Of a stretch of DNA of 64,000 nt, positions 500 to 63,494 are shown piece after piece. Origin of the DNA: Formosimonas sp. Its GTDB lineage: Bacteria > Pseudomonadota > Gammaproteobacteria > Burkholderiales > Burkholderiaceae. The DNA is taken from positions 54,856 to 118,855 of the forward strand of contig JBOFII010000021.1 in the NCBI GenBank assembly GCA_051650085.1. Direction: 5' to 3'. A program made the position numbers and the translations under genes. The notes beneath the pieces are model-generated. The model was not told where the DNA came from. It did not search any database and saw only the letters and a program-made list of their open reading frames with translations. Position 1 is the stretch's first letter. Each line of letters begins with the position of its first letter.

Positions 500-1302
500 G
501 CACCATTCAAGTCGCTTTGCACTCCAGCCCGCTGCCCGCACTTGAAGCGCGTATGCTCATGCAGTATGTCACTCAATTGTCACGCACAGGGTTGATTAGT
601 CATGCTTATGATGAACTGACTGTGACCCAATTGGCGCAGCTAACGACATTAACCCAGCGCCGCTTAGCGGGCGAGCCAATGGCTTACATCATTGGTTCAC
701 GTGAGTTTTATGGGCGTGAGTTTATCGTGACCCCAGATGTGCTGATTCCACGTCCCGACACCGAAACGCTGATTGATACTTTGCTCGATTTATACGATGG
801 GCAAAACTGGCATGTGCTGGATTTGGGGACAGGTTCAGGGGCGATTGCGATTACGCTGGCTTTAGAATGCCCCAACTGGCAGGTTTGCGCTGCTGATATT
901 TCCACCGCTGCACTAACCGTGGCACAGCGCAATGCCACACAATTGGCGGCGACGGTGCAATTTGAGGCCAGTGACTGGTTGAGCGCGTTTACAGGGCAAA
1001 AATTTGACTTGATTGTCAGCAATCCGCCCTATATTGATGTCAACGATGACCATTTAAACCAAGGCGATTTACGCTTTGAACCGCGCATTGCCCTAACCGA
1101 CCAGCAAAATGGCTTGACGAATTACATCCACTTGATAGATACTGTCCCCGATTATTTAAACAACACAGGGCAGCTGTGGTTTGAGCACGGGTACGATCAA
1201 GCCGAACCCATCAGCAGCCTCATGAGACAAAAAGGCTACCACAACGTGCGCACCGTCATTGACTTAGGCGGCAACCCGCGCGTGACAGGTGGTCATTTAT
1301 AG
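496..1302 (+). CDS. prmC: Peptide chain release factor N5-glutamine methyltransferase (PrmC/HemK)
   Basis: 268 aa. SAM-binding motif LDLGTGSGAI and catalytic VSNPPYI (NPPY) motif. Confidence 0.9.
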   Translation: MSTIQVALHSSPLPALEARMLMQYVTQLSRTGLISHAYDELTVTQLAQLTTLTQRRLAGEPMAYIIGSREFYGREFIVTPDVLIPRPDTETLIDTLLDLYDGQNWHVLDLGTGSGAIAITLALECPNWQVCAADISTAALTVAQRNATQLAATVQFEASDWLSAFTGQKFDLIVSNPPYIDVNDDHLNQGDLRFEPRIALTDQQNGLTNYIHLIDTVPDYLNNTGQLWFEHGYDQAEPISSLMRQKGYHNVRTVIDLGGNPRVTGGHL

Positions 1303-1311
1303 GCGAGACCC

Positions 1312-1962
1312 ATGGCACGATTGCCCCGTTTGTATTTGCCCAATACCGCACAACTCGTGATGGTACGCGGCATCAACTCTGCCCCTGTTTTTTTAAGCGA
1401 CGTCGATTACCAACAATGGCACAACATACTGCGCAGTATTGTCCCCAATTATGCCGTCGCCATTCATGCATATGCGTTACTGGAGGACAGCCTGTACTTA
1501 TTGGTCAGTGCCGACGAGCCTGCCGCGCTGGGCAAATTGATGCAGGACTTGGGACGTCGCTATGTCCGTTACTTTAATCAACTGCATGGCCGAACAGGCA
1601 CATTATGGGAGGGCCGCTACCGCACCGCTTACTTGCAAGATGCTTATATTTTGAGCGCTTATTTGTGGTTAGACAGCATGAGCCAACAATCCAGCCGCAA
1701 TCACCATGAAGGCATGCAAACCCTTGGGTTCATCACCGAGCACCCGCAATATTGGGCTTTGGGCAACACGCCATTTGACCGCCAACATCAATATCGCCAA
1801 AGCATGCTCCATGGTCTCAATCCGCAAGTTGCAACCGAGCTTGCCCAAGCAGTCAAAACGGGCTGGGCTTTGGGCGATATTGCTTTTCTCAGCCACGCGG
1901 CGCGAATTGGCGGGCGACGCGTCACGCAAGCGGCGCGAGGACGACCTAAAAAAGCGTTATAA
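1312..1962 (+). CDS. IS200/RayT-like Y1-transposase-fold protein with a degenerate HUH motif, probably a domesticated or inactive derivative
   Basis: 216 aa. It aligns by eye to the COG1943/Y1_Tnp pattern (LP..Y.........R..........D, WEGRYR, AYLWLDS). The position where the family has HvH reads SLY (LLEDSLYLLV). Confidence 0.65.
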   Translation: MARLPRLYLPNTAQLVMVRGINSAPVFLSDVDYQQWHNILRSIVPNYAVAIHAYALLEDSLYLLVSADEPAALGKLMQDLGRRYVRYFNQLHGRTGTLWEGRYRTAYLQDAYILSAYLWLDSMSQQSSRNHHEGMQTLGFITEHPQYWALGNTPFDRQHQYRQSMLHGLNPQVATELAQAVKTGWALGDIAFLSHAARIGGRRVTQAARGRPKKAL

Positions 1963-1994
1963 AGCACGCAATTGATTTTATTCCCAACGAAATA

Positions 1995-2003
1995 TGCTAT
2001 AAT
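1995..2003 (+). promoter_or_regulatory. Candidate extended -10 promoter element (TGcTATAAT) upstream of rpoD
   Basis: tgctataat lies 43 nt upstream of the rpoD ATG. I see no convincing -35 element. Confidence 0.3.
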
Positions 2004-2045
2004 CCGCGCCTACCCCAAATAGATGGTTTCTAAAAGGCGCGTCCA

Positions 2046-4190
2046 ATGAGTTCTAGCAAAAACAGCACAACTATTGATAAAAGCACCCAAAAACCATCTG
2101 CGACAGAGAAAAAAAGTATGACCGCAAAAAAAGCAACGCCAACGCCCAAAGCCGCAACCAAAACAGTTGCCGACAAAAAATCAACCAAAATCAAAGCCAA
2201 ACCCATTGAACTGGAAGACGATTTAGATGTTGAAAACGACTTGCTGGACGACAGCGAATTGCTTGACACCGAAGAAATTCCCGAAATTCAAATCATTCCC
2301 GCCAAAGGCGACAAGGCCAAAGCACGTAAAAGCAAAGAGCAAGCTGCCGAGCAAAATGCCGCTGCGCTTGAAACCAAGCGTGCGCAAATGCGCAATTTGA
2401 TTAAACTGGGTAAAGACAAAGGTTACTTGACCCACGCCGAAATCAACGACAGCCTGCCCGACGACATGGTCGAAGGCGACGCGCTGGACGCCATGATTTC
2501 AGCCTTCACCGACATGGGGATTCAGGTTTACGAGCAAGCCCCCGATGCCGAAACCTTGTTGATGGCCGACAACGTGCCTACTGCCTCGAATGACGACGAC
2601 ACCGAAGAAGAAGCCGAAGCCGCACTGTCAACAGTCGACTCCGAATTTGGCCGCACCACCGACCCTGTGCGTATGTACATGCGTGAAATGGGCACGGTTG
2701 AGCTATTGACCAAAGTACAAGAAATCGAAATTGCCAAACGCATCGAAGAAGGCCAACGCGAAATGATGGCCGCGATTTCTGCCTGCCCATCGACCATTCA
2801 GCAAATCCGCGAACTGGTCGAGAAAATCCGCGCTGACGAGTTGTCTGTGAGTGATGTCGTGGATGGCTTTGTTGGCGTTGAAGAAGCGTTTGACAGCACT
2901 GACGAAGAGCTGGATGTTGATGCCGACGAAGAAGATGTTGAAGCCGCCAGCAATGCCGCTTCAGCCAAACAATTGCTCGCACTCAAAACCCAATCCCTTG
3001 AAAAATTCAGCGTTATCGAAAAAAACTTTGACAAAATGCGTGTTGCCTTTGGCAAAGATGGCTACTTGTCTGCAGCTTACAATAAAGCCCAAGAAGCCAT
3101 TACCAACGAGCTGATGAGCATCCGCTTCACCGCCCGAACAGTCGATAAACTGTGTGACAGCTTGCGCAACCAAGTTGAGTCTGTTCGCAAAATCGAAAAC
3201 CGCATTCGCACACTGTGCGTAGACCGCATCGGCATGGACGCACAGTTTTTCATCACCAATTTCCCTGGTCATGAAACCAATCTTGAATGGGCCACTGCCT
3301 TATTGGCAGGTAAACACAGCTTTAATCCTTTGCTGTCACGCAACGTCCCTGCACTGAACGAGTTACAAAACCAACTCATCGAACTGCAGAATCACGTGGT
3401 TTTGCCGTTGAGCGACTTGAAAAACATCAACCGCCAAATGATTGCAGGCGAAACCAAAACCCGCAGTGCCAAAAAAGAAATGGCTGAGGCCAACTTGCGT
3501 CTTGTGATTTCGATTGCCAAACGCTACACCAACCGTGGTTTGCAATTCCTTGATTTGATTCAAGAAGGCAACATTGGCTTGATGAAAGCGGTCGACAAAT
3601 TCGAATACCGTCGTGGCTATAAATTTTCAACCTACGCCACGTGGTGGATTCGCCAAGCGATTACCCGCTCCATCGCCGACCAAGCCCGCACCATTCGCAT
3701 TCCTGTGCACATGATTGAAACCATCAACAAAATGAATCGCATTTCACGCCAGATTTTGCAAGAAACTGGCTCTGAGCCTGATGCCGCAGTTTTGGCCGAA
3801 AAGATGGAAATGCCAGAGCACAAAATCCGCAAAATCATGAAAATCGCGCGTGAGCCGATTTCGATGGAAACGCCAATTGGCGATGACGAAGATTCACATT
3901 TAGGTGATTTCATTGAAGACGGCAACACCATGACTCCTGCCGAATCTGCATTGCATACAGGCATGCAAGACATCGTTAAAGATGTTTTGGACTCTCTCAC
4001 CCCACGTGAAGCCAAGGTTTTGCGCATGCGTTTTGGGATTGAAATGACCACCGACCACACGCTAGAAGAAGTCGGCAAACAATTTGACGTCACGCGCGAG
4101 CGCATCCGCCAAATCGAAGCCAAGGCCTTGCGCAAACTGCGCCACCCTTCTCGCTCCGAAAAGCTCAAGAGTTTCCTCGAAAACTCTTAA
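2046..4190 (+). CDS. rpoD: RNA polymerase primary sigma factor RpoD (sigma-70) with a long Lys-rich/acidic N-terminal extension
   Basis: 714 aa. Region 2 ([32 protein letters not shown]) and region 4 ([30 protein letters not shown]) are unmistakable. Confidence 0.97.
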
Positions 4191-4198
4191 CCCTTTAC

Positions 4199-4275
4199 GG
4201 GCCGTTAGCTCAGTTGGTTAGAGCAGAGGACTCATAATCCTTTGGTCGGCGGTTCAAGTCCGCCACGGCCTACCA
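4199..4275 (+). tRNA. tRNA with a CAU anticodon, more likely tRNA-Ile2 (lysidine-modified) than elongator tRNA-Met
   Basis: A 77-nt cloverleaf. The acceptor gggccgt pairs with acggcct, followed by A and an encoded CCA. The anticodon loop is cTCATAa and the T arm is ggcgg-ttcaagt-ccgcc. C4:G69 and C5:G68, the TGGTC variable loop and the TTCAAGT T loop match my recollection of E. coli tRNA-Ile2 better than tRNA-Met. Confidence 0.9.
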
Positions 4276-4282
4276 ATAAAAT

Positions 4283-4315
4283 AGCGGCACTCCAAGTGAG
4301 TAGCCGCTTTTTTTA
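4283..4315 (+). terminator. Rho-independent terminator after the rpoD-tRNA unit
   Basis: An agcggc ... gccgct stem followed by a T7 run (tttttttatttttt). Confidence 0.7.
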
Positions 4316-4609
4316 TTTTTTGTTTATTGGCATTTTTAATTATGCCCGCCAGTAAATAACAAACCTCATAATTCATCCACTTGTTTGCAAGCAGCATCTA
4401 TTTTTAGATGTTGTTCCATATTTTGCGACTATTCAATCCCCAGCCTTGACTCTAAGCGCAAAGCCATTAAGAGCGATATGGCCGCCCACTCATTCAAAAT
4501 GCGTGACAAGGCCGCGGATAACGCTTTTGTTTAAAGCAGGCAATGGGCTGTTGCTTGCTCATTTTTCGCACGCCAATCAGTTACGCGCCGCGCTTCATCA
4601 AGTAGTTTT

Positions 4610-5293
4610 TCACACCGTCGCCACTGCCAAGCGCACCGCAAACCCGACAAACATCAACCCAACCGTTGCCGTGCCCGCAACCATCCAAACAGGGCGGGCG
4701 CGAAAGGCACTGGCAAGGCGTGCGCCTGCAAAAATCAGTGCGCTCAAATATATAAAACTGAACAATTGCAAAATCAAGCCCAAAATCAAAAACGCGACGT
4801 ACGGATGTTCGGCTTCAGGCGAGACAAATTGCAAAAAAAACGACAACACGAACAAAATCGCTTTGGGGTTGACAAGGCTCACCAGCAAGGCTTTTTTGAA
4901 CGGATGCAAGCCTTCGGGCGTAGTGAGGCTTGACGCTTCGGTTAAATCGAGTTGGCTGGCCGCTGCCACGGTCAACTGCGCACGGTTGCGCCAAATGCGC
5001 CACGCGCCTGTGAGCATTTGCAGGCCAAGGTAACCCAGATACAACGCGCCTGTGACTTTGAGGGCGACAAACACACTCGGCGCATTTTGCAACACCGTCG
5101 CTGCGCCAATCACCGCCAAGACCATGATGATGGTGTCGCCGACAAACACGCCGCACGCACCTGCATAACCACGGCGCACGCCTTGCTGGGCGGCGGTGGT
5201 CAAAACATACATTGAGTTGGGGCCTGGCAATAAAATAATCGCAATCGTGCCAATAACGTAAGCGGTGAGGTCGGTGATGCCCAAAAAGCCCAT
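4610..5293 (-). CDS. LysE/RhtB-family amino-acid exporter (LeuE/YeaS-like)
   Basis: 227 aa and polytopic. The N-terminus, ...VIGTIAIILLPGPNSMYVLTTAAQQGVRRGY, is characteristic of the LysE superfamily. Confidence 0.85.
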   Translation of the reverse strand: MGFLGITDLTAYVIGTIAIILLPGPNSMYVLTTAAQQGVRRGYAGACGVFVGDTIIMVLAVIGAATVLQNAPSVFVALKVTGALYLGYLGLQMLTGAWRIWRNRAQLTVAAASQLDLTEASSLTTPEGLHPFKKALLVSLVNPKAILFVLSFFLQFVSPEAEHPYVAFLILGLILQLFSFIYLSALIFAGARLASAFRARPVWMVAGTATVGLMFVGFAVRLAVATV

Positions 5294-5295
5294 AT

Positions 5296-5625
5296 TTAAG
5301 CCTTTGCGGTGAACGAATACGCACGTTCGACTTTAGCGACGCGCGTGATGTAATGCTCATACCATTTTTCGCGCCCTGTTTCTTGCGCAATCACGTGCTC
5401 GGCCTGCGCTTTCCACGCGGCGATGTGCGCTTCGGTTTGCCAATATGATACTGTAATACCAAACCCATCCTCGCCACGCACACTTTCGGCACCCAAAAAA
5501 CCTCCCTGCTGTTGCGCCAATTCGACCATGCGCTCGCCCATGGCATCGTAGCCTTGGTCACCTGCGGTGCGCTGGCTTGTGAAAATAACCGCGTAGTACG
5601 GTGGCTGAGGTGTGTTGGCAAACAT
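5296..5625 (-). CDS. Antibiotic-biosynthesis-monooxygenase (ABM) domain protein
   Basis: About 109 aa with the ferredoxin-like ABM pattern (YYAVIFTSQR ... GFLGAESVR ... ITVSYWQTEAHIAAWK). The chosen ATG overlaps the carA stop as TAATG. An alternative start at 5637 (MCEIM) is possible. Confidence 0.75.
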   Translation of the reverse strand: MFANTPQPPYYAVIFTSQRTAGDQGYDAMGERMVELAQQQGGFLGAESVRGEDGFGITVSYWQTEAHIAAWKAQAEHVIAQETGREKWYEHYITRVAKVERAYSFTAKA

Positions 5626-54075: not shown

Positions 54076-54107
54076 AAAAAGCCCATCGACATGATGGGCT
54101 TTTTTTT
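54075..54107. terminator. Bidirectional rho-independent terminator between convergent lysA and the amidohydrolase gene
   Basis: An aaaaaaa-gcccatc-gacat-gatgggc-tttttttt structure with A and T runs on either side. Confidence 0.75.
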
Positions 54108-55353
54108 ACAACGCAACCGCTCGCTCCAGCACCGCATGCAACAACACATTACAACCTGCTTCAATGTGTTCAGGCTCTGCATCTTCGATTTCGTTGTGGC
54201 TAATGCCGTCTTTACAGGGGATGAAAATCATCCCCGTCGGGGCGAGTCGCGCCATATACACTGCGTCGTGCCCCGCCCCTGAGACAGCAGGCATATGGCT
54301 GTAACCGAGTCTTTGCGCGGCTTTTTCAACCGCTTGAACACAATCGGCATGAAAGGCTTGCGCGGGATACGCGCTGACGGGGGTGATGTCAATCGGCAAA
54401 CCTGTTTGCGCCGAAATTCTGGCGGCGACAGCGCGGATGTCGGCATCCATTTGTTCGCACAGCTCATCTGTGGCGTTGCGTAAATCAATGCTGAATTTGA
54501 CTTGCCCTGGAATCACGTTGCGGCTGTTGGGATGAACCTGCACCATACCGACCGTGCCGCGCCCGTGCGGCGGGTGGCGATATGCGCAGTCAACCACTTC
54601 TTGCATGAGTTGCGCAGCGGCTTGCAACGCGTCTTTACGCAGAGCCATGGGTGTGGGGCCAGCATGGGCTTCCATGCCTGAAACCACACAATCGTACCAG
54701 CGAATCCCCAAAACCCCTGTCACCACGCCGATGGTTTTGCCATGGTCTTCTAAAACGGGGCCTTGCTCAATATGCGCTTCAAAATACGCACCAATCGGGT
54801 GTTGCCCTGCAACTTCGTCGCCCAAGTAACCGATGCGAGCCAATTCGTCTTTAACGCTAACGCCCTGCGTGTCGGTCGCGGCATAGGCGTGTTCGAGCGA
54901 AAACGCATTGGCAAACACACCTGAGCCCATCATGACGGGTACAAAACGCGAGCCTTCTTCGTTAGTCCACCACGCCACTTCAATTGGGGCTTCAGTTTCA
55001 ATCTGATGGTCATTGAGCGTGCGCACCACTTCAAGCCCTGCCAAAACGCCATAGTTGCCATCAAATTTGCCGCCTGTCGGTTGGGTGTCGATGTGGCTGC
55101 CCATCATAATCGGTGGCAAGGCGTTGTTGCGCCCTGCGCGGCGCATGAAGCCGTTGCCGATTTGGTCGATGGTTACAGTCATGCCCGCTTCACGCGCCCA
55201 TTGGCTGACGAGGTCGCGCCCTTGTTTGTCCAAGTCTGTCAAGGCCAAGCGGCACACGCCGCCTTTGGCGGTTGCGCCAATTTGTGCCAAACGCATCAGT
55301 GAATCCCACAAACGTGAACCGTTGATGCGTAAGTTGTCGATATGCTCGCTCAT
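54106..55353 (-). CDS. M20-family Zn-dependent amidohydrolase (N-carbamoyl-beta-alanine / allantoate amidohydrolase type; beta-ureidopropionase role inferred)
   Basis: 415 aa from the ATG at 55353, overlapping the preA stop (ATGA). Motifs are GSHIDTQP.GGKFDG..GV and WTNEEGSRF. Confidence 0.82.
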   Translation of the reverse strand: MSEHIDNLRINGSRLWDSLMRLAQIGATAKGGVCRLALTDLDKQGRDLVSQWAREAGMTVTIDQIGNGFMRRAGRNNALPPIMMGSHIDTQPTGGKFDGNYGVLAGLEVVRTLNDHQIETEAPIEVAWWTNEEGSRFVPVMMGSGVFANAFSLEHAYAATDTQGVSVKDELARIGYLGDEVAGQHPIGAYFEAHIEQGPVLEDHGKTIGVVTGVLGIRWYDCVVSGMEAHAGPTPMALRKDALQAAAQLMQEVVDCAYRHPPHGRGTVGMVQVHPNSRNVIPGQVKFSIDLRNATDELCEQMDADIRAVAARISAQTGLPIDITPVSAYPAQAFHADCVQAVEKAAQRLGYSHMPAVSGAGHDAVYMARLAPTGMIFIPCKDGISHNEIEDAEPEHIEAGCNVLLHAVLERAVAL

Positions 55354-56663
55354 GAAGCCGCTCCAATCTGTTGCATGGGGTTGTTGGGATGGTCTATCCA
55401 TTTGAGATAACGCTCACTCACAGGCTTGCCTGTGCGTTGGTCGATTTCGCCCACAGCCAATGAGCGCAAACTAATGGCTTGCGGCACGGGACAAACCGAT
55501 ACGCACAAGTTGCAGCCCACACATTCTTCTTCTTTGATTTCAAACATCCGCACACCATTTTTGGACGCGCTGATGGCTTGATGCGAGGTGTCTTCGCAGA
55601 CCGCGTAGCAACGCCCACATTGGATGCAATGGTCTTGGTCAATCACGGCTTTATCGACGTGATTGAGGTTCAATTGCTGCCAGTCGGTGACGCTGGGCAC
55701 GGCTTTGCCGCGAAAATCGTCAATGCTGCGATAACCTTTGGTGTCGATAAAATGCGACAAACCATCGCACAACTCCTCAATGATTTTGAAACCATAAACC
55801 ATTGCGGCGGTGCACACCTGAACATTGCCGCAACCCATCGCAATGAACTCGGCCGCATCGCGCCAAGTGGTCACGCCGCCAATGCCCGAGATGGGCAAAC
55901 GCGCCGTCAACGGGTCACGAGCGATTTCGGCCACCATATTCAAGGCAATCGGTTTGACCGCCTCACCGCAATAGCCGCCGTGGCTGCCTTTGCCGCCTGT
56001 GTTGGGCGTCATCAGCATATGGTCTAAATCCACGCCCATAATCGAGTTGATGGTGTTGATTAAACTCACCGCGTCCGCACCGCCTTTGTGCGCCGCGCGA
56101 GCGGGCATACGAATGTCAGTGATGTTGGGCGTGAGTTTGACGATAACGGGCAGTTTAGAATAATGCTTGCACCATTCCGTGACCATTTGAATGTATTCAG
56201 GCACTTGGCCAACCGCCGCGCCCATGCCGCGCTCTGACATGCCGTGTGGGCAGCCAAAATTCAACTCAATCCCGTCGCAACCCGTGTCTTCGACCATCGG
56301 CAAAATATTTTTCCACGACGACTCCACGCACGGCACCATGATGGAGCAAATCACCGCGCGGTCAGACCAGTTGCGTTTGACACGTGCCATTTCTTCTAAA
56401 TTGGTGCGCAAAGGGCGGTCTGAAATCAACTCAATGTTGTTAAAACCAATCACGCGGCGGTCTTTGGCGTACAACGCCGAATAGCGCGGCCCATGCACAT
56501 TGACCACATGCGGGTCTTCGCCAACGGTTTTCCACACCACGCCGCCCCAGCCTGCCTCAAAGGCCCGTACGACGTTGACTTCTTTATCGGTTGGCGGCGC
56601 AGAAGCGAGCCAAAATGGATTGGGGCTTTTGATGCCCAAAAATGAAGTGGTTAAATCTGCCAT
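55350..56663 (-). CDS. preA: NAD-dependent dihydropyrimidine dehydrogenase subunit PreA (FMN / 2x[4Fe-4S])
   Basis: 437 aa with a DHOD-like TIM barrel (GCDGIELNFGCPHG) and C-terminal ferredoxin motifs CIQCGRCYAVC and CVGCNLCVSVCP. Confidence 0.9.
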   Translation of the reverse strand: MADLTTSFLGIKSPNPFWLASAPPTDKEVNVVRAFEAGWGGVVWKTVGEDPHVVNVHGPRYSALYAKDRRVIGFNNIELISDRPLRTNLEEMARVKRNWSDRAVICSIMVPCVESSWKNILPMVEDTGCDGIELNFGCPHGMSERGMGAAVGQVPEYIQMVTEWCKHYSKLPVIVKLTPNITDIRMPARAAHKGGADAVSLINTINSIMGVDLDHMLMTPNTGGKGSHGGYCGEAVKPIALNMVAEIARDPLTARLPISGIGGVTTWRDAAEFIAMGCGNVQVCTAAMVYGFKIIEELCDGLSHFIDTKGYRSIDDFRGKAVPSVTDWQQLNLNHVDKAVIDQDHCIQCGRCYAVCEDTSHQAISASKNGVRMFEIKEEECVGCNLCVSVCPVPQAISLRSLAVGEIDQRTGKPVSERYLKWIDHPNNPMQQIGAAS

Positions 56664-56675
56664 GTTGTGCTCCCG

Positions 56676-58016
56676 TTATGCGTTGGATAAAAATTGATGT
56701 ATCGAGGCCGCAGCCATTTTGCCGTCTTGCACCGCTTCAACCGTTAAGTCGCGCCCGCCCAAACGACAATCGCCACCCGCCCACACTTTGGTTAGATTGG
56801 TGCGTAAATTGGCGTCGGTCGGAATCCGCCCTGATTGCAACTCAATGCCAGAATCCTCCAACACCGTGGCGACAAAACTTTGCCCAATCGCGGTGAGCAG
56901 CATGTCCGCGGCAATGTCAAATGTCTCGCCCGTCTCAACCAATTGACCATCATGCACCTCGGTTTTGACACATTGCACGCTGGCCAAACTATGATCGGCG
57001 TGTAGCGTCACGCTTTTTGGACTGACCCAATGGATGATTTTGACCCCATTGTGGCACGCCCACTCTTGCTCATCAACCGATGCGCCCATCGCCTCAACGC
57101 CGCGCCGATAAACCATAGTGACATTTTGCGCACCGAGCAAACGAGCTTGCACTGACGCATCAACCGCCGTCATGCCACCACCAATCACCACGACATTAGC
57201 ACCAATCGGCACGTCGCTGGGCGACTTGGCTTGGCGCAACTGGCTAATAAAATCCACCGCAGGGCGAATGCTCAAGTGCTGTGGCACAGCAAAACCCAAC
57301 TCATTCACGCCCGCCAAACCCACGCCGACAAACACCGCGTCGTAGTCTTGCACCAATTGACTGACCTGAATCTCGCGCCCCAAGGCGTGATCGAGATGCA
57401 CATCAATCCCGCCAACCGACAACAGCCAGTCGATTTCTTTTTGCGCAAACGCACCCACGGTTTTGTACGTGGCCAAGCCGTACTCGTTCAACCCGCCCAA
57501 TTTATCTTTCGCGTCAAACAACGCCACCTGATGCCCTTGCACCGCCAACTGATGCGCACAGGCCAAACCCGCAGGCCCCGCACCCACCACGGCCACGCGC
57601 TTACCTGTTTCGGCGGCGCGGGTAAACATGGTCAACTCTGGCTGCGCAAAATGTGCGTCCGTTGCGAATCGCTGCAACAGGCCGATTTCGACAGGCTTGC
57701 CTTCGTTGGTGTTGCGCACACAAGCCTGCTCGCACAACTCTTCTGTGGGGCAAACCCGTGCGCACATGCCGCCCAACGGGTTGGCGGTCAAAATCTGCTT
57801 GGCCGCGCCATGTAAATTACCGTCGCTGATGCGGTGAATGAAACTGGGAATATCAATCGACGTGGGGCACGCCGTGGTGCACGGTGCGTCGTAGCAAAAA
57901 TAACAGCGGTCAGCCTCAATCAAGGCTTGCTTAAGATTGAGCGGCGGATGCGCATCACAAAAATTTTGTGCGTATTGCTCGCTGGACAAACGATGGGTTT
58001 GAATATTAGCACTCAT
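56676..58016 (-). CDS. preT: NAD-dependent dihydropyrimidine dehydrogenase subunit PreT (GltD-like)
   Basis: 446 aa from the ATG at 58016. It has an N-terminal Fe-S region (CYFCYDAPCTTACP, CARVCP) and dinucleotide folds VAVVGAGPAGLA and VVVIGGGMTAVD. Confidence 0.88.
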   Translation of the reverse strand: MSANIQTHRLSSEQYAQNFCDAHPPLNLKQALIEADRCYFCYDAPCTTACPTSIDIPSFIHRISDGNLHGAAKQILTANPLGGMCARVCPTEELCEQACVRNTNEGKPVEIGLLQRFATDAHFAQPELTMFTRAAETGKRVAVVGAGPAGLACAHQLAVQGHQVALFDAKDKLGGLNEYGLATYKTVGAFAQKEIDWLLSVGGIDVHLDHALGREIQVSQLVQDYDAVFVGVGLAGVNELGFAVPQHLSIRPAVDFISQLRQAKSPSDVPIGANVVVIGGGMTAVDASVQARLLGAQNVTMVYRRGVEAMGASVDEQEWACHNGVKIIHWVSPKSVTLHADHSLASVQCVKTEVHDGQLVETGETFDIAADMLLTAIGQSFVATVLEDSGIELQSGRIPTDANLRTNLTKVWAGGDCRLGGRDLTVEAVQDGKMAAASIHQFLSNA

Positions 58017-58032
58017 ACAATTTCCTTCACAA

Positions 58033-59487
<1,455 letters not shown>

Positions 59488-60906
59488 TTATTTGTTTTTG
59501 GATGCGGTCAACGCGTAATAAAGCCCAGCCACGGCCAAACTGAAGAACCAACCAAAGCTGAAAATATCACCCCAAATCGGTGCAATACTGCCTTTTTCGA
59601 TAATCCCCGCCACTTCAAAATAACCGGGCATACACGGCGCAACCCCCAAAATCATGGCCACAATCGCGTGGATGTTCCAGCCATTGCTGTAACTGTATTG
59701 CCCTTGATGTTTGTATAAATCGTCCACCACCAAACGACCTTTGCGCACGATGTAGTAATCGACCAGCAAAATCCCCGCAATCGCGCCAAGCAAAGTGCCA
59801 TAACCACCCAACCACGAAAACAAATAACCGCCTGAGGTTGCCAATAATTTCCACGGCATAAACAATAAACCAATCACCGCTGCAATCAAACCGCCCATGC
59901 GAAAACTGATTTTATCGGGCGCAACTTGCGAAAAATCATACGATGGCGAGACCAAATTGGCCGCCACATTGGTGGTCAAGTTAGCCAATAAAATCACCAA
60001 CAAGCCCACGCTGGCGGCAAATGTACCCATTTGCGTCAACAAACCATCGGGGAACAATTGCGCTTTGCCGTACAAAATTTGTGAGGCCGAAAAACCGAGC
60101 ACACCGACCAACGAAAACAACGCCATTGGAATCGGTAAACCAATGGATTGACCCACCACTTGGTCTTTTTGCGACTTGGCAAAGCGCGTAAAGTCAGGAA
60201 TATTGAGCGCCAAAGTCGCCCAAAAACCGACCAAACCCGTCAACGCCGCCCAAGTTTTTGGCCCGCCCTCCACCACTTTAACGGGCAAGTCCAAAATTTG
60301 GCTCAAAGGGATTTTGACCAGCAAATACACCACCAAAGCCAGCGATGCAGCAATCATCAAAGGTGCAGCAATAACTTCGAGTTTGCGAATGGATTCGGGG
60401 CCTTTCCAAATGAAATACAAATGCACCAGCCAAAAGGCCAAAAAGCACATGAACTGTGATGTGCTGATGAACTCGCCTTGCGCAGGCGCGGCCAAACCAA
60501 AACCGAGCACATTGAAAAAACCGTGCAAAGCCAGTGCGCCAAAATAGCAGTTGATGCTGAACCAACCGCACGCCACTAAACCGCGCAGCACCGCAGGCAG
60601 TGTCGCGCCTTTGACGCCAAACGACGCTCGCGCCACCACAGGAAACGGAATGCCATACGTCGCGCCAATCCGCCCCATCAACACCATGGGCACCAAAACA
60701 ATCACGTTGGCCACCAACACCAACCACAAGGCCATAGACCACGAAAATCCTTGGTCAAGCATGCTGCTCGCCATGGTGTAGGTCGGCACACACACCACCA
60801 TGCCGACCCACAGCGCGGCAAAATCTTGCCAGCGCCATGTTCGATGCGATGGATGTGTGGGTAACAGATCTTCGTTGATTAAGTTGCTGTTGCTCTGGCT
60901 CATCAT
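59488..60906 (-). CDS. NCS1-family nucleobase/hydantoin:cation symporter
   Basis: 472 aa with 12 TM segments. The N-terminus NEDLLPT....R.W.....A.LW.GM is typical of NCS1. The stop abuts the dihydropyrimidinase ORF. Confidence 0.85.
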   Translation of the reverse strand: MMSQSNSNLINEDLLPTHPSHRTWRWQDFAALWVGMVVCVPTYTMASSMLDQGFSWSMALWLVLVANVIVLVPMVLMGRIGATYGIPFPVVARASFGVKGATLPAVLRGLVACGWFSINCYFGALALHGFFNVLGFGLAAPAQGEFISTSQFMCFLAFWLVHLYFIWKGPESIRKLEVIAAPLMIAASLALVVYLLVKIPLSQILDLPVKVVEGGPKTWAALTGLVGFWATLALNIPDFTRFAKSQKDQVVGQSIGLPIPMALFSLVGVLGFSASQILYGKAQLFPDGLLTQMGTFAASVGLLVILLANLTTNVAANLVSPSYDFSQVAPDKISFRMGGLIAAVIGLLFMPWKLLATSGGYLFSWLGGYGTLLGAIAGILLVDYYIVRKGRLVVDDLYKHQGQYSYSNGWNIHAIVAMILGVAPCMPGYFEVAGIIEKGSIAPIWGDIFSFGWFFSLAVAGLYYALTASKNK

Positions 60907-61114
60907 AGTCTCCTGTAAAATGATTGGTATTTTTTTTAATAACGAACTTTATACAACCATTGTTTTTTATCCACAATAAATAAAATTGGTGCAATGCAAT
61001 GGATTTACACCATTTGAAGCACCGCCGCATTAAAAAACCAATAAACACAAGGCATACAACAACAGTGCCAATTCAACAATCCTCTAAAGACCACTTCATC
61101 CGCCCTATTGACTA

Positions 61115-61141
61115 AAAAGCCGTCTAAAAGAACGGCTTTTT
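61115..61141. terminator. Rho-independent (symmetrical) terminator downstream of the adhesin gene
   Basis: An aaaagccgt-ctaaaaga-acggctttt hairpin flanked by A/T runs. Confidence 0.7.
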
Positions 61142-61153
61142 AAATACAACAGG

Positions 61154-63268
61154 CTAATCCCACACATAACCCACACCAACAGTGCCACTAAAATGCTTGC
61201 CCACATGAGACAAACTGCTCTTATAAACCCACTTACCATCAGGGGTTTGCCCAGAAACACCCATGGCAAATGCCGCATGCCCTCGATAAACACTGCCTGA
61301 AATCGCAAACATTTTTTTACCCACTTGCGCCGCGAGCGGCAATCCAGCCACAGCCAAAGCCATTGCGACCCCTTGATTGGCATAATCATTGGCCTGAGCC
61401 AATGCGCTGGCCGTGTAGCCACGCAATTGGCTGACATTCACCGCATCCGTATCCGCCGTGCCCGCAGCTACATGGCTGATTTGACGCTCACGCCCAGCCG
61501 AGCCTACTGAAATGGTATTTGCCCTATCGGCCACAGAGTTTGCCCCCAAGGCCACAGCATTGTCAGCTATCGCCCTACTGTTGGCACCCAAAGCCATTGA
61601 ATTCACACTCAATGCCGTAGCAGCATGGCCTAAAGCCACTGCATTGTCATGAGCAGCCAAAGCACTCGGCCCAATAGCAACAGCCTCATTCCCAGCAGCC
61701 ACCGCATCCGCCCCCTCTGAATTGGCCTTGAAATACTTCGTCGCACGGTATATCGCGGTTGAACTAGAAGTACTCAACGAAGCAACAGCACTGGCGACAT
61801 TAGAAAAACTCATAGAAGAAATAGTAGAGCTCAAAGACGCTGTCGCAGTATGTGCGCTGGCAATGCCTGTCGACGTTGAAGCACTTAACGATGAGGTCGC
61901 GCTATTGGCTACAACAATCCCCGTTGACGTTGACGTGCTCAATGATGACGTTACACTGTTGGCTGCGATAATCCCAGTCGACACCGATGTACTCAACGAT
62001 GATGTCGCGCTGTTGGCTACAACAATCCCCGTTGACGCCGATGTGCTCAACGATGACGTTGCACTGTTGGCTGCGATAATCCCAGTTGATGTTGATGTGC
62101 TCAACGATGAAGTCGCACTGTTCGCTGCGATAATCCCAGTTGATGTTGATGTGCTCAACGATGAAGTCGCACTGTTCGCTGTAACAATCCCAGTTGACGC
62201 CGATGTGCTCAATGATGAGGTCGCGCTATTCGCTACAACAACCGCTGTTGATGTTGATGTACTTAACGATGACGTTGCACTGTTCGCGGCAACAATCCCT
62301 GTCGACGCCGATGTACTCAATGATGAGGTCGCGCTATTCGCTACAACAACCGCTGTTGATGTTGATGTACTTAACGATGAAGTCGCACTGTTCGCTGTAA
62401 CAATCCCAGTTGACGCCGATGTACTCAATGATGACGTTGAACTGCTCGCTGCAATAATCCCTGTCGACGCCGATGTACTCAACGATGAGGTCGCGCTATT
62501 CGCTGCAAAAATCCCCGTTGACGTTGACGTGCTCAACGATGAAGTCGCACTGTTCGCTGCGATAATCCCAGTTGATGCTGATGTGCTCAATGATGAAGTC
62601 GCACTGTTCGCTGCGATAATCCCAGTTGATGCTGATGTGCTCAACGATGAAGTCGCACTATTCGCTGCAACAATCCCAGTTGACGCCGATGTACTTAATG
62701 ATGAAGTCGCACTGTTCGCTGCAACAATCCCAGTTGATGCTGATGTGCTCAATGATGAAGCCGCACTACTGACAGAAACAATGCCAGTTGAGGTTGATGT
62801 ACTCAATGATGACGTTGCACTGTTGGCTGAAACAATGCCCATTGACGTTGATGCACTCAACGATGCAACCGAACTATGTGTTGAAGCAATGGCCGTTGAG
62901 GCAGAGGTGCTCAACGATGCAACAGCACTTTCGACATTGGCGACAACAGCACCTCCTGTCGCTGCGACTTGATCCGCGCAGGCTTGTTGCTCTGCTGCAG
63001 TGGGGGTATTGCCAGCGCTCACTGGTTCTATTTGTAAATTGGCATTGCCATTACCAACAAAAGTATACACGCAAGAACCGAAAGTAATAGTTGCATCAGC
63101 ACGAGCATCTTTTTCTGCAATGAGGAAAATACTTAAAATTGGCCAAGCAACCAGCGAAACAGCAGAAGTTAATACATTTTTACATTTGCCTTGACTTGTA
63201 GAAATTTCCGAGACCGCCACCCAAGTATTCGTTTTTTGATTGAATACTGTTTTATATTTCGCATTCAT
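61154..63268 (-). CDS. Trimeric autotransporter adhesin (YadA-like anchor) with a highly repetitive Ser/Thr-rich passenger
   Basis: The ATG at 63268 lies 5 nt after AGGAGG. It has an extended signal peptide region (MNAKYKTVFNQKTNTWVAVSEIS), short YadA-like head repeats (NAVALG/NSMALG), a neck (ISHVAAGTADTDAVNVSQL) and a C-terminal YadA anchor (MALAVAGLP...GHAAFAMGVS...GVGYVWD). Confidence 0.9.
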   Translation of the reverse strand: MNAKYKTVFNQKTNTWVAVSEISTSQGKCKNVLTSAVSLVAWPILSIFLIAEKDARADATITFGSCVYTFVGNGNANLQIEPVSAGNTPTAAEQQACADQVAATGGAVVANVESAVASLSTSASTAIASTHSSVASLSASTSMGIVSANSATSSLSTSTSTGIVSVSSAASSLSTSASTGIVAANSATSSLSTSASTGIVAANSATSSLSTSASTGIIAANSATSSLSTSASTGIIAANSATSSLSTSTSTGIFAANSATSSLSTSASTGIIAASSSTSSLSTSASTGIVTANSATSSLSTSTSTAVVVANSATSSLSTSASTGIVAANSATSSLSTSTSTAVVVANSATSSLSTSASTGIVTANSATSSLSTSTSTGIIAANSATSSLSTSTSTGIIAANSATSSLSTSASTGIVVANSATSSLSTSVSTGIIAANSVTSSLSTSTSTGIVVANSATSSLSASTSTGIASAHTATASLSSTISSMSFSNVASAVASLSTSSSTAIYRATKYFKANSEGADAVAAGNEAVAIGPSALAAHDNAVALGHAATALSVNSMALGANSRAIADNAVALGANSVADRANTISVGSAGRERQISHVAAGTADTDAVNVSQLRGYTASALAQANDYANQGVAMALAVAGLPLAAQVGKKMFAISGSVYRGHAAFAMGVSGQTPDGKWVYKSSLSHVGKHFSGTVGVGYVWD
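61751..62932. repeat. Tandem 54-bp (18-codon) repeat array, about 22 units, inside the adhesin gene
   Basis: The protein-level unit is SATSSLSTS(A/T)STGI(V/I)(A/V)AN. A 108-bp two-unit block is duplicated almost exactly (for example 62216-62270 versus 62324-62378). Confidence 0.92.
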
Positions 63269-63494
63269 CACAACCTCCTAAGAAATTTGACTTTCAATAC
63301 GTATTAATACTTTTGGCAAATATACTATTTATTTATTTTTTTGCATATCAAAAATCAATTATGGGCGTATTTACAACACTTTTTTTGTGTGAACACTCAA
63401 GGTTGATGCAGCGAAAAAAGTGTCCATCTCACGCCCAACCCGCTCATAAAACGTTAAAATAACGCCTTTGTTCGATGTCACACGAAAGATATGT

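What the first reader, a model, noticed from the sequence alone, without database searches (positions are those of the whole stretch)
61154..63268. Trimeric autotransporter whose passenger is mostly about 22 tandem 18-residue Ser/Thr-rich units, with the small YadA-like head placed next to the anchor
After an ESPR-type signal and a short Cys-containing N-terminal segment, about 390 residues consist of SATSSLSTS(A/T)STGI(V/I)(A/V)AN repeated with a strict 54-bp period.

The only YadA-head-like repeats (NAVALG, NSMALG, NAVALG) and the neck lie C-terminal to the array, just before the anchor. That is an unusual order.

An 18-residue period equals five alpha-helical turns (18/5 = 3.6). If the array is helical, it would form an essentially unsupercoiled trimeric stalk, unlike the 7- or 15-residue periodicities described for TAA stalks.

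Near-identical units, and an almost exact 108-bp two-unit duplication (62216-62270 versus 62324-62378), indicate recent expansion. They also make copy-number (length) variation by recombination or slippage likely. Because 54 is a multiple of 3, this would be size variation and not on/off switching.
Basis: partly seen in the sequence, partly recalled or inferred. Interest (0 to 1): 0.6.

Follow-up and report, generated by a model that had tools for sequence, protein, structure and literature searches.

The report
Headless adhesin with SLST coiled-coil stalk
This gene encodes a bacterial surface fibre (a trimeric autotransporter) whose shaft is 22 copies of a serine-rich 18-residue unit; this repeat is already described in Burkholderia relatives as an unusual coiled coil, so the gene is an ordinary, though head-less, member of a known family.

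Summary
Window 61154-63268 (minus strand) encodes a 704/705-aa trimeric autotransporter. It has an ESPR signal, a 54-residue two-Cys cap and 22 in-register 18-residue Ser/Thr-rich units (aa 113-508). These are followed by a mini YadA-like head, a neck and an anchor.

The unit is the "SLST repeat" named in Burkholderia BoaA/BoaB/BpaC. Szczesny & Lupas (2008) already read ITSLSTSTSTGLSSANSS as "a hendecad plus a heptad" coiled coil.

My evidence agrees. Conserved hydrophobic positions lie on one helical stripe. Unit lengths across more than 100 Burkholderiales loci follow 11+7n. In normally built paralogs the array follows a neck.

AF2 modelled the window's perfectly periodic array as a beta-solenoid. 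It modelled the same units, where irregular, in a B. stagnalis homolog as one 121-residue helix. The solenoid is therefore probably the documented AF2 repeat artefact.

The anchor-proximal mini-head is standard in this family. What is less usual is the lack of an N-terminal head, and that recurs within the genus (Hydromonas).

The array is not a recent expansion: units are about 80% identical at DNA level, mostly through synonymous changes, with only a few recent duplications.

The parts
61154..63268 (-). Complete TAA gene (704 aa from ATG 63268; GTG at 63271 is in frame one codon upstream); stop codon at 61154-61156
63276..63281 (-). Shine-Dalgarno AGGAGG, 5 nt upstream of the ATG. The upstream spacer is AT-rich, with a weak sigma-70-like site (63351-63322) and (AAAT)3.
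63098..63268 (-). ESPR-type extended signal peptide (aa 2-49 by Pfam). The probable cleavage after A-R-A (aa 56-58) is inferred from the -3/-1 rule.
   Evidence: sequence
62936..63097 (-). Short N-terminal cap of the mature protein (aa 59-112) with Cys67 and Cys98; no family match. AF2 gives low confidence here: three short strands plus helix 92-104.
61748..62935 (-). Array of 22 x 18-residue SLST units (aa 113-508). It is 53% Ser+Thr and has one charged residue. If helical it would be a ~59 nm stalk.
61496..61747 (-). Stalk-to-head transition (YRATKYFKANS) and mini YadA-like head (about 4 head repeats, aa ~509-592)
   Evidence: aligns to SadA 2yo0/2yo3, YadA 1p9h, BpaC 7o23
61367..61483 (-). 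Neck / YadA_stalk motif (aa 597-635) leading into the last coiled-coil helix (AF2 helix 613-642)
61157..61330 (-). YadA-like membrane anchor (aa 648-704; four beta-strands in the AF2 model)
   Evidence: (Hia anchor 2gr7/2gr8)
61120..61150 (-). Hairpin followed by a T-run directly after the stop codon (GCCGTTCTTTTAGACGGCTTTTT): probable intrinsic terminator, so the gene is monocistronic
   Evidence: read from the sequence; the consensus scan did not list it
54106..63467 (.). About 9.3-kb species-specific segment (pyrimidine reductive-catabolism operon plus this TAA gene) between the lysA-like gene and ftsK. Those two genes are adjacent in three other Hydromonas genomes.

Best explanation
The gene encodes a type Vc (trimeric autotransporter) surface fibre.

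Export and assembly (established TAA biology): the ESPR signal directs Sec export. The C-terminal 4-strand segment of three chains forms the 12-strand outer-membrane anchor, and the passenger is extruded.

The stalk (inferred from sequence, not solved): the 396-residue array of 18-residue SLST units forms a parallel three-stranded alpha-helical coiled coil. Each unit is one heptad plus one hendecad, that is 18 residues over 5 turns, or 3.6 per turn, so the helices run almost straight. The core is unusually polar. Counting from Leu = 0 the core positions are Leu(0), Ala/Thr(4), Gly(7)/Ile(8), Ala(11) and Thr(15).

Dimensions and function (inferred): the stalk would be about 59 nm long. It carries only a 54-residue disulfide-capable cap at its tip in place of a large head. 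It is joined to the membrane through the family's usual mini-head, neck and anchor. The likely function is adhesion or auto-aggregation, or a spacer fibre, on a freshwater Hydromonas cell. Length would be set by unit number, which can change in frame by recombination between units.
For: TAA identity: ESPR, YadA_head, YadA_stalk and YadA_anchor all pass Pfam cut-offs. PDB sequence matches to SadA, YadA, BpaC and Hia cover aa 507-704.

Same repeat as the known SLST unit: the Burkholderia consensus LSTSTSTGLSSANSSITS compares with the window's LSTSASTGIVAANSATSS. At least 120 loci, almost all Burkholderiales, carry arrays with the same 18-codon spacing.

Coiled-coil evidence:
1. In 579 Hydromonas units the invariant hydrophobic positions 0, 8, 11, 15 plus Thr4 span only 80 degrees on a 100-degree-per-residue wheel. 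The chance of five positions doing so is 0.002.
2. Unit lengths are quantised. In Burkholderiales loci, 89.7% of the 1,445 non-18 spacings are 11+7n (11, 25, 32, 39, 46). In Hydromonas, 90.6% are sums of 7 and 11.
3. In normally built paralogs the array begins directly after a neck (...DAINGSQLYA...) and ends in ...KYFxANS, the places where TAA coiled coils sit.
4. The last unit aligns with the coiled-coil-to-head segment of SadA 2yo0/2yo3.
5. AF2 models the SLST units of a B. stagnalis homolog as one 121-residue helix continuous with the neck, at pLDDT 71-83.
6. Szczesny & Lupas 2008 annotate ITSLSTSTSTGLSSANSS as 'a hendecad plus a heptad' coiled coil.
Against: AF2 on the window's own protein models the array as a beta-solenoid with one 18-residue coil per unit, at pLDDT 65-83. 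That is higher than for the genuine head and anchor.

The composition (53% Ser+Thr, one Gly per unit, one charged residue in 396) has low intrinsic helix propensity.

A hydrophobicity Fourier analysis of the window's array alone peaks at periods 9 and 4.5, not at 3.6.

The window's unit has a weaker core than the family: Val/Ile at position 15 is replaced by Thr, Val at 11 by Ala, and an extra Val/Ile sits at position 9 on the opposite face.

No experimental structure of any SLST unit was found. Both AF2 runs were monomers with shallow alignments of 10-11 sequences.
Confidence: 0.8

Rival explanations
1. The array folds as a beta-solenoid or beta-roll with one 18-residue coil per unit. Three such rods would pack around the trimer axis, like an elongated YadA-type head, giving a short (~10 nm) Ser/Thr-faced rod.
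For: The AF2 model of the window protein has strands of 10 and 4 residues per unit at pLDDT 65-83. Ser/Thr/Gly-rich composition is typical of beta-solenoids. The strongest hydrophobic period in this array is 9 residues, which is half a coil.
Against: [quoted passage not shown] The model has no significant structural match in the PDB, with best Foldseek E = 0.68. The same units, where irregular, are modelled as one long helix. Unit-length variants in steps of exactly 7 or 11 residues would break the register of an 18-residue coil. The arrays start right after necks, which lead into helices.
Confidence: 0.1
2. The array is an intrinsically disordered, possibly O-glycosylated, mucin-like Ser/Thr spacer with no fixed structure.
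For: The array is 53% Ser+Thr with almost no charge. Polar-core TAA coiled coils are routinely predicted as disordered and can be marginally stable (PMC13580157).
Against: There is strong position-specific conservation: Leu, Gly, Ile and several Ser are invariant, while third-codon positions vary freely. Unit lengths are strictly quantised across hundreds of units and many genera. A TAA passenger has to trimerise along its length to hold the head, neck and anchor in register, which follows from established TAA architecture. No glycosyltransferase gene is adjacent.
Confidence: 0.07
3. The array length (22 units) is an assembly artefact, with a longer array collapsed or mis-joined in a short-read assembly.
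For: Six contig ends of the same genome lie inside paralogous SLST arrays: C4, C23, C34, C36, C39 and C42. So these repeats do break this assembly.
Against: In this gene the longest exact internal DNA repeat is 65 bp, followed by 58, 53 and 50 bp. That is short enough for ordinary reads and k-mers to resolve. The array is flanked by unique sequence within a 127.6-kb contig, and the frame is intact.
Confidence: 0.1

Closest known systems
SLST-repeat TAAs of Burkholderia (BoaA, BoaB, BpaC/BMA1027) and the 'ITSLSTSTSTGLSSANSS' coiled coil of Szczesny & Lupas 2008
   Same: Essentially the same 18-residue unit. It sits in the same place, between a neck and a membrane-proximal head, neck and anchor. 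Both are Burkholderiales. Copy number varies between genes, and for Burkholderia between strains.
   Different: The window's protein has no N-terminal YadA-like head, and its array is a single uninterrupted run of 18-mers. Its unit has Thr instead of Ile/Val at core position 15, Ala instead of Val at position 11, and an extra Val/Ile at position 9. Outside the C-terminal ~200 residues there is no close ortholog.
Salmonella SadA / E. coli UpaG-type TAAs (PDB 2yo0, 2yo3) and the BpaC C-terminal head (7o23)
   Same: A coiled-coil stalk ends in the (T)KYF(K)xNS motif and runs into a small YadA-like head and then a neck. The best PDB sequence match has E = 7e-27.
   Different: Their stalks are heptad-based with N@d polar layers, not hendecad+heptad Ser-rich units. 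They also carry several heads and connector domains.
Neisseria NadA-type 'head-less' TAAs (from my own knowledge, not tested here)
   Same: The passenger is dominated by a coiled-coil stalk with only a small N-terminal element.
   Different: No sequence similarity was detected. NadA has no SLST units and no membrane-proximal mini-head.

Membership tests
Trimeric autotransporter adhesin (type Vc secretion) | C-terminal YadA-like anchor (4 beta-strands per chain) | tested here: met
   PF03895, E = 1.4e-8, 35.1 bits against a cut-off of 22.7, on aa 648-704. Matches the Hia anchor 2gr7/2gr8. AF2 gives four strands at 654-704.
Trimeric autotransporter adhesin (type Vc secretion) | Neck/stalk motif and YadA-like head repeats in the passenger | tested here: met
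   PF05662 at 42.2 bits and PF05658 at 38.6 bits with 4 stretches. Alignments to SadA, YadA and BpaC.
Trimeric autotransporter adhesin (type Vc secretion) | N-terminal Sec signal (often the ESPR type) | tested here: met
   PF13018, 42.8-45.8 bits, aa 2-49.
Trimeric autotransporter adhesin (type Vc secretion) | Forms surface-exposed homotrimers | not testable with these tools
   The structure tool predicts monomers only. This needs SDS-resistant trimer detection or EM.
SLST-repeat coiled-coil stalk (Burkholderiales TAAs; hendecad + heptad unit) | 18-residue unit with the motif S-L-S-T-S-x-S-T-G-(hydrophobic), repeated in tandem | tested here: met
   22 units. The pattern scan recovers the same spacing in at least 120 loci, and the consensus units are nearly identical.
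SLST-repeat coiled-coil stalk (Burkholderiales TAAs; hendecad + heptad unit) | Core positions following a heptad + hendecad (a-d-a'-d'/e'-h') stripe | tested here: met
   Met for the family: positions 0, 4, 8, 11, 15 lie within 80 degrees. In the window's own unit the stripe is kept but with Leu, Ala/Thr, Ile, Ala, Thr, so the core is weaker and more polar.
SLST-repeat coiled-coil stalk (Burkholderiales TAAs; hendecad + heptad unit) | Actually alpha-helical and trimeric | tested here: inconclusive
   AF2 monomer models disagree: a solenoid for the window's array and a 121-residue helix for a B. stagnalis homolog. No solved structure exists.

The most novel reading that the evidence does not exclude
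The window's variant of the SLST unit has Thr at the heptad a position, Ala at h', and a conserved Val/Ile on the face opposite the core. It may not simply be a weaker coiled coil. It could form a stalk with a continuous exposed hydrophobic line of about 60 Val/Ile per trimer. That line could itself be the adhesive or self-associating surface, which would explain why this protein needs no head. Alternatively, this variant could genuinely adopt a non-helical (beta) fold that the canonical units do not.
Probability: 0.1. Interest if true: 0.55.

Novelty: new member of a known kind. Interest (0 to 1): 0.25.

Why it matters
The finding is mainly of annotation value. It shows that the Ser-rich "low-complexity" stretch is a structured stalk module known from Burkholderia adhesins. 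The module extends to freshwater Hydromonas, where it builds both head-less fibres and giant ones (up to 5,675 aa).

It is also a clear natural case where AlphaFold2 gives opposite, similarly confident answers for the same repeat unit, depending on how regular the array is.

No experimental structure of this hendecad + heptad, ~50% serine coiled coil was found. The short, fully assembled gene here would be a convenient source of fragments for solving one.

Tried and rejected
- Hydrophobicity Fourier analysis on the window's array alone was ambiguous, with peaks at 9, 4.5 and 3.6. I replaced it with family-wide position profiles.
- The PDB sequence search with the repeat region alone found only a marginal SadA hit, driven by the KYF/head part.
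- Foldseek of the AF2 model against the PDB found nothing significant.
I replaced it with a degenerate DNA pattern scan.
- The exact-sequence look-up of the protein found no cluster, so no length variants could be compared.
- The genus holds only 8 species genomes and none has a close ortholog of the N-terminal cap, with the best at 35-39% identity mostly in the ESPR. None of the fetched TAA loci shares the window's flanking genes.
- I considered a nonad (9-residue) alpha/beta coiled coil because of the period-9 peak. I rejected it because the two halves of the unit are unrelated and the unit-length steps are 7 and 11, not 9.
- Earlier notes of this scan hold nothing on this repeat.

Full report
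**Observation**

The ORF at 61154..63271 on the minus strand is real and intact, at 705 aa from a GTG.

Tandem Repeats Finder reports a 54-bp period with 18.6 copies, 81% matches and no indels. Cutting the protein into 18-mers gives 22 in-register units at aa 113-508. The consensus is ANSATSSLSTS(A/T)STGI(V/I)A.

Pfam finds ESPR on the full protein. When the C-terminal 198 residues are scanned alone, it also finds YadA_head (4 stretches), the neck/YadA_stalk motif and YadA_anchor, all above their curated cut-offs. PDB sequence matches (SadA 2yo0/2yo3, YadA 1p9h, BpaC 7o23, Hia anchor) cover only aa ~507-704.

**Context in the genome and genus**

The window lies in a 2.19-Mb, 55-contig genome. 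A same-genus genome contig (G004:C5) is identical in sequence to a record titled "MAG: Hydromonas sp.". So the genus is Hydromonas, in the Burkholderiaceae.

The same repeat type fills many other genes:
- Six contig ends of the window's own genome lie inside such arrays.
- A complete same-genus genome encodes open frames of 5,675, 3,494+, 3,281, 2,454, 2,237 and 1,771 aa that consist mostly of these units.
- In normally built paralogs the order is ESPR, large YadA-like head, neck, SLST array, "KYFxANS" mini-head, neck, anchor.

The anchor-proximal mini-head is therefore the family's standard C-terminal module, not an unusual placement. What distinguishes the window's gene is the missing N-terminal head. 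Only 54 residues, with two Cys, precede the array.

That head-less form recurs with at least three different two-Cys caps: the window; own C42 and G001; and G006 (1,771 aa) and G003. No close ortholog of the window's cap exists in the 8 species genomes of the genus.

The gene has its own terminator and a much lower GC3 (0.42) than its neighbours (0.60-0.66). Together with a pyrimidine-catabolism operon, it lies in a ~9.3-kb segment. That segment separates a lysA-like gene from ftsK, two genes that are adjacent in three other Hydromonas genomes.

**What the repeat is**

A pattern scan required three S-L-S-T-S-x-S-T motifs at exactly 18-codon spacing. Nearly all were Burkholderiales: many Burkholderia, plus Collimonas, Paraburkholderia, Caballeronia, Trinickia, Variovorax, Polaromonas and Hydromonas.

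The consensus unit in these loci, LSTSTSTGLSSANSSITS, is essentially the window's LSTSASTGIVAANSATSS.

These are the "serine-rich SLST repeats" named in B. mallei/pseudomallei BoaA and BoaB (PMC2955633) and in BpaC/BMA1027 (PMC4021183).

**Helix or solenoid?**

Independent sequence evidence supports the coiled coil:
1. In 579 Hydromonas 18-mers, the invariant hydrophobic positions (0, 8, 11, 15 from the Leu) plus Thr4 span only 80 degrees of a 100-degree-per-residue wheel. The chance of five positions doing so is 0.002.
2. Gly7 sits next to the large residue at position 8. This is what I would expect of a hendecad d/e layer (my inference).
3. Unit lengths are quantised. In the Burkholderiales loci, 89.7% of the 1,445 non-18 spacings equal 11+7n (11, 25, 32, 39, 46). 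In Hydromonas, 90.6% are sums of 7 and 11 (11, 22, 29, 40, 44). Steps of 7 and 11 keep a helical core in register but would break an 18-residue beta coil.
4. The arrays begin directly after necks and end in the motif that precedes YadA-like heads in solved SadA fragments.

Against this, AF2 (monomer, 10-sequence alignment) modelled the window's array as a beta-solenoid with one coil per unit. Its pLDDT was 65-83.

That model has no significant PDB counterpart, with best Foldseek E = 0.68. [quoted passage not shown]

As a control I folded the C-terminal 351 residues of a B. stagnalis homolog. There, about 100 residues of SLST units with irregular lengths (11/14/18) follow a neck. AF2 gave one uninterrupted helix of 121 residues (49-169) at pLDDT 71-83.

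AF2's answer therefore depends on regularity and context, and I treat the solenoid as a probable artefact. It remains a formal rival, at about 0.1, because no SLST unit has been solved.

**Peculiarities of this copy**

Relative to the family, the window's unit replaces core Val/Ile(15) by Thr and Val(11) by Ala. It also carries a conserved Val/Ile at position 9, on the face opposite the core. The array is 53% Ser+Thr with one charged residue in 396. If helical, it would be about 59 nm long.

**Age and variability**

Most unit pairs are 74-89% identical at DNA level. Among the core units, 16 of 18 third-codon positions vary but only 8 of 18 residues do. The array is therefore old and under purifying selection. 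A few duplications are recent: units 14 and 15 are identical, and there is the 102/108 two-unit block.

The longest exact internal repeat is 65 bp, so this array, unlike its paralogs, was probably assembled correctly. The exact protein is not in the protein collection, so no length variants could be compared.

**Verdict**

The gene is a correctly observed but ordinary member of a known class: a Burkholderiales TAA with an SLST hendecad + heptad stalk. Its head-less architecture is a minor variant that recurs in the genus.

Interest is low to moderate. The main residual value is as a compact source for the first experimental structure of this stalk type, and as a cautionary AF2 example.

Noticed in passing
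L011 (G006:C1:1523500-1543000), frame from locus position 827: A complete same-genus (Hydromonas) genome encodes a 5,675-aa TAA in which about 4,770 residues (aa ~700-5470) are SLST units of 18, 11, 22 and 29 residues. If helical, that is a fibre of roughly 0.7 micrometres. Four further genes of 2,200-3,500 aa in the same 2.7-Mb genome are built the same way.
   Followed up: partly
own genome contigs C4, C23, C34, C36, C39, C42 (contig ends): Six contig ends of the window's genome lie inside SLST arrays. At least three more TAA genes are therefore split by assembly gaps, and their true lengths are unknown.
   Followed up: partly
window 54106-63467: A ~9.3-kb segment separates a lysA-like gene from ftsK, which are adjacent in G006, G007 and G004. 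It carries a reductive pyrimidine-catabolism operon (M20 amidohydrolase, PreA- and PreT-like subunits, dihydropyrimidinase, NCS1 permease) plus the TAA gene. The permease has no homolog in the other 7 genomes of the genus.
   Followed up: partly
window 63322-63345 (minus strand, upstream of the TAA start): An AT-rich promoter region contains A7 followed by (TAAA/AAAT)x3. This is reminiscent of tetranucleotide phase-variation tracts upstream of some TAA genes, but too short to argue for slippage.
   Followed up: no
AF2 models m7139369e4395 (window protein) and m81dbf6c7e6d0 (L038:1679-2731): AlphaFold2 gives a beta-solenoid (pLDDT 65-83) for the strictly periodic SLST array and a single long alpha-helix (pLDDT 71-83) for the same units in an irregular array after a neck. 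This is a natural example of the published AF2 repeat artefact.
   Followed up: yes
L082, L090 (Caulobacteraceae MAGs), L100 (Sphingomonas MAG): SLST-type arrays with YadA-like anchors also occur in a few Alphaproteobacteria MAG contigs. The module is therefore not strictly confined to Burkholderiales, or else these contigs are mis-binned.
   Followed up: no
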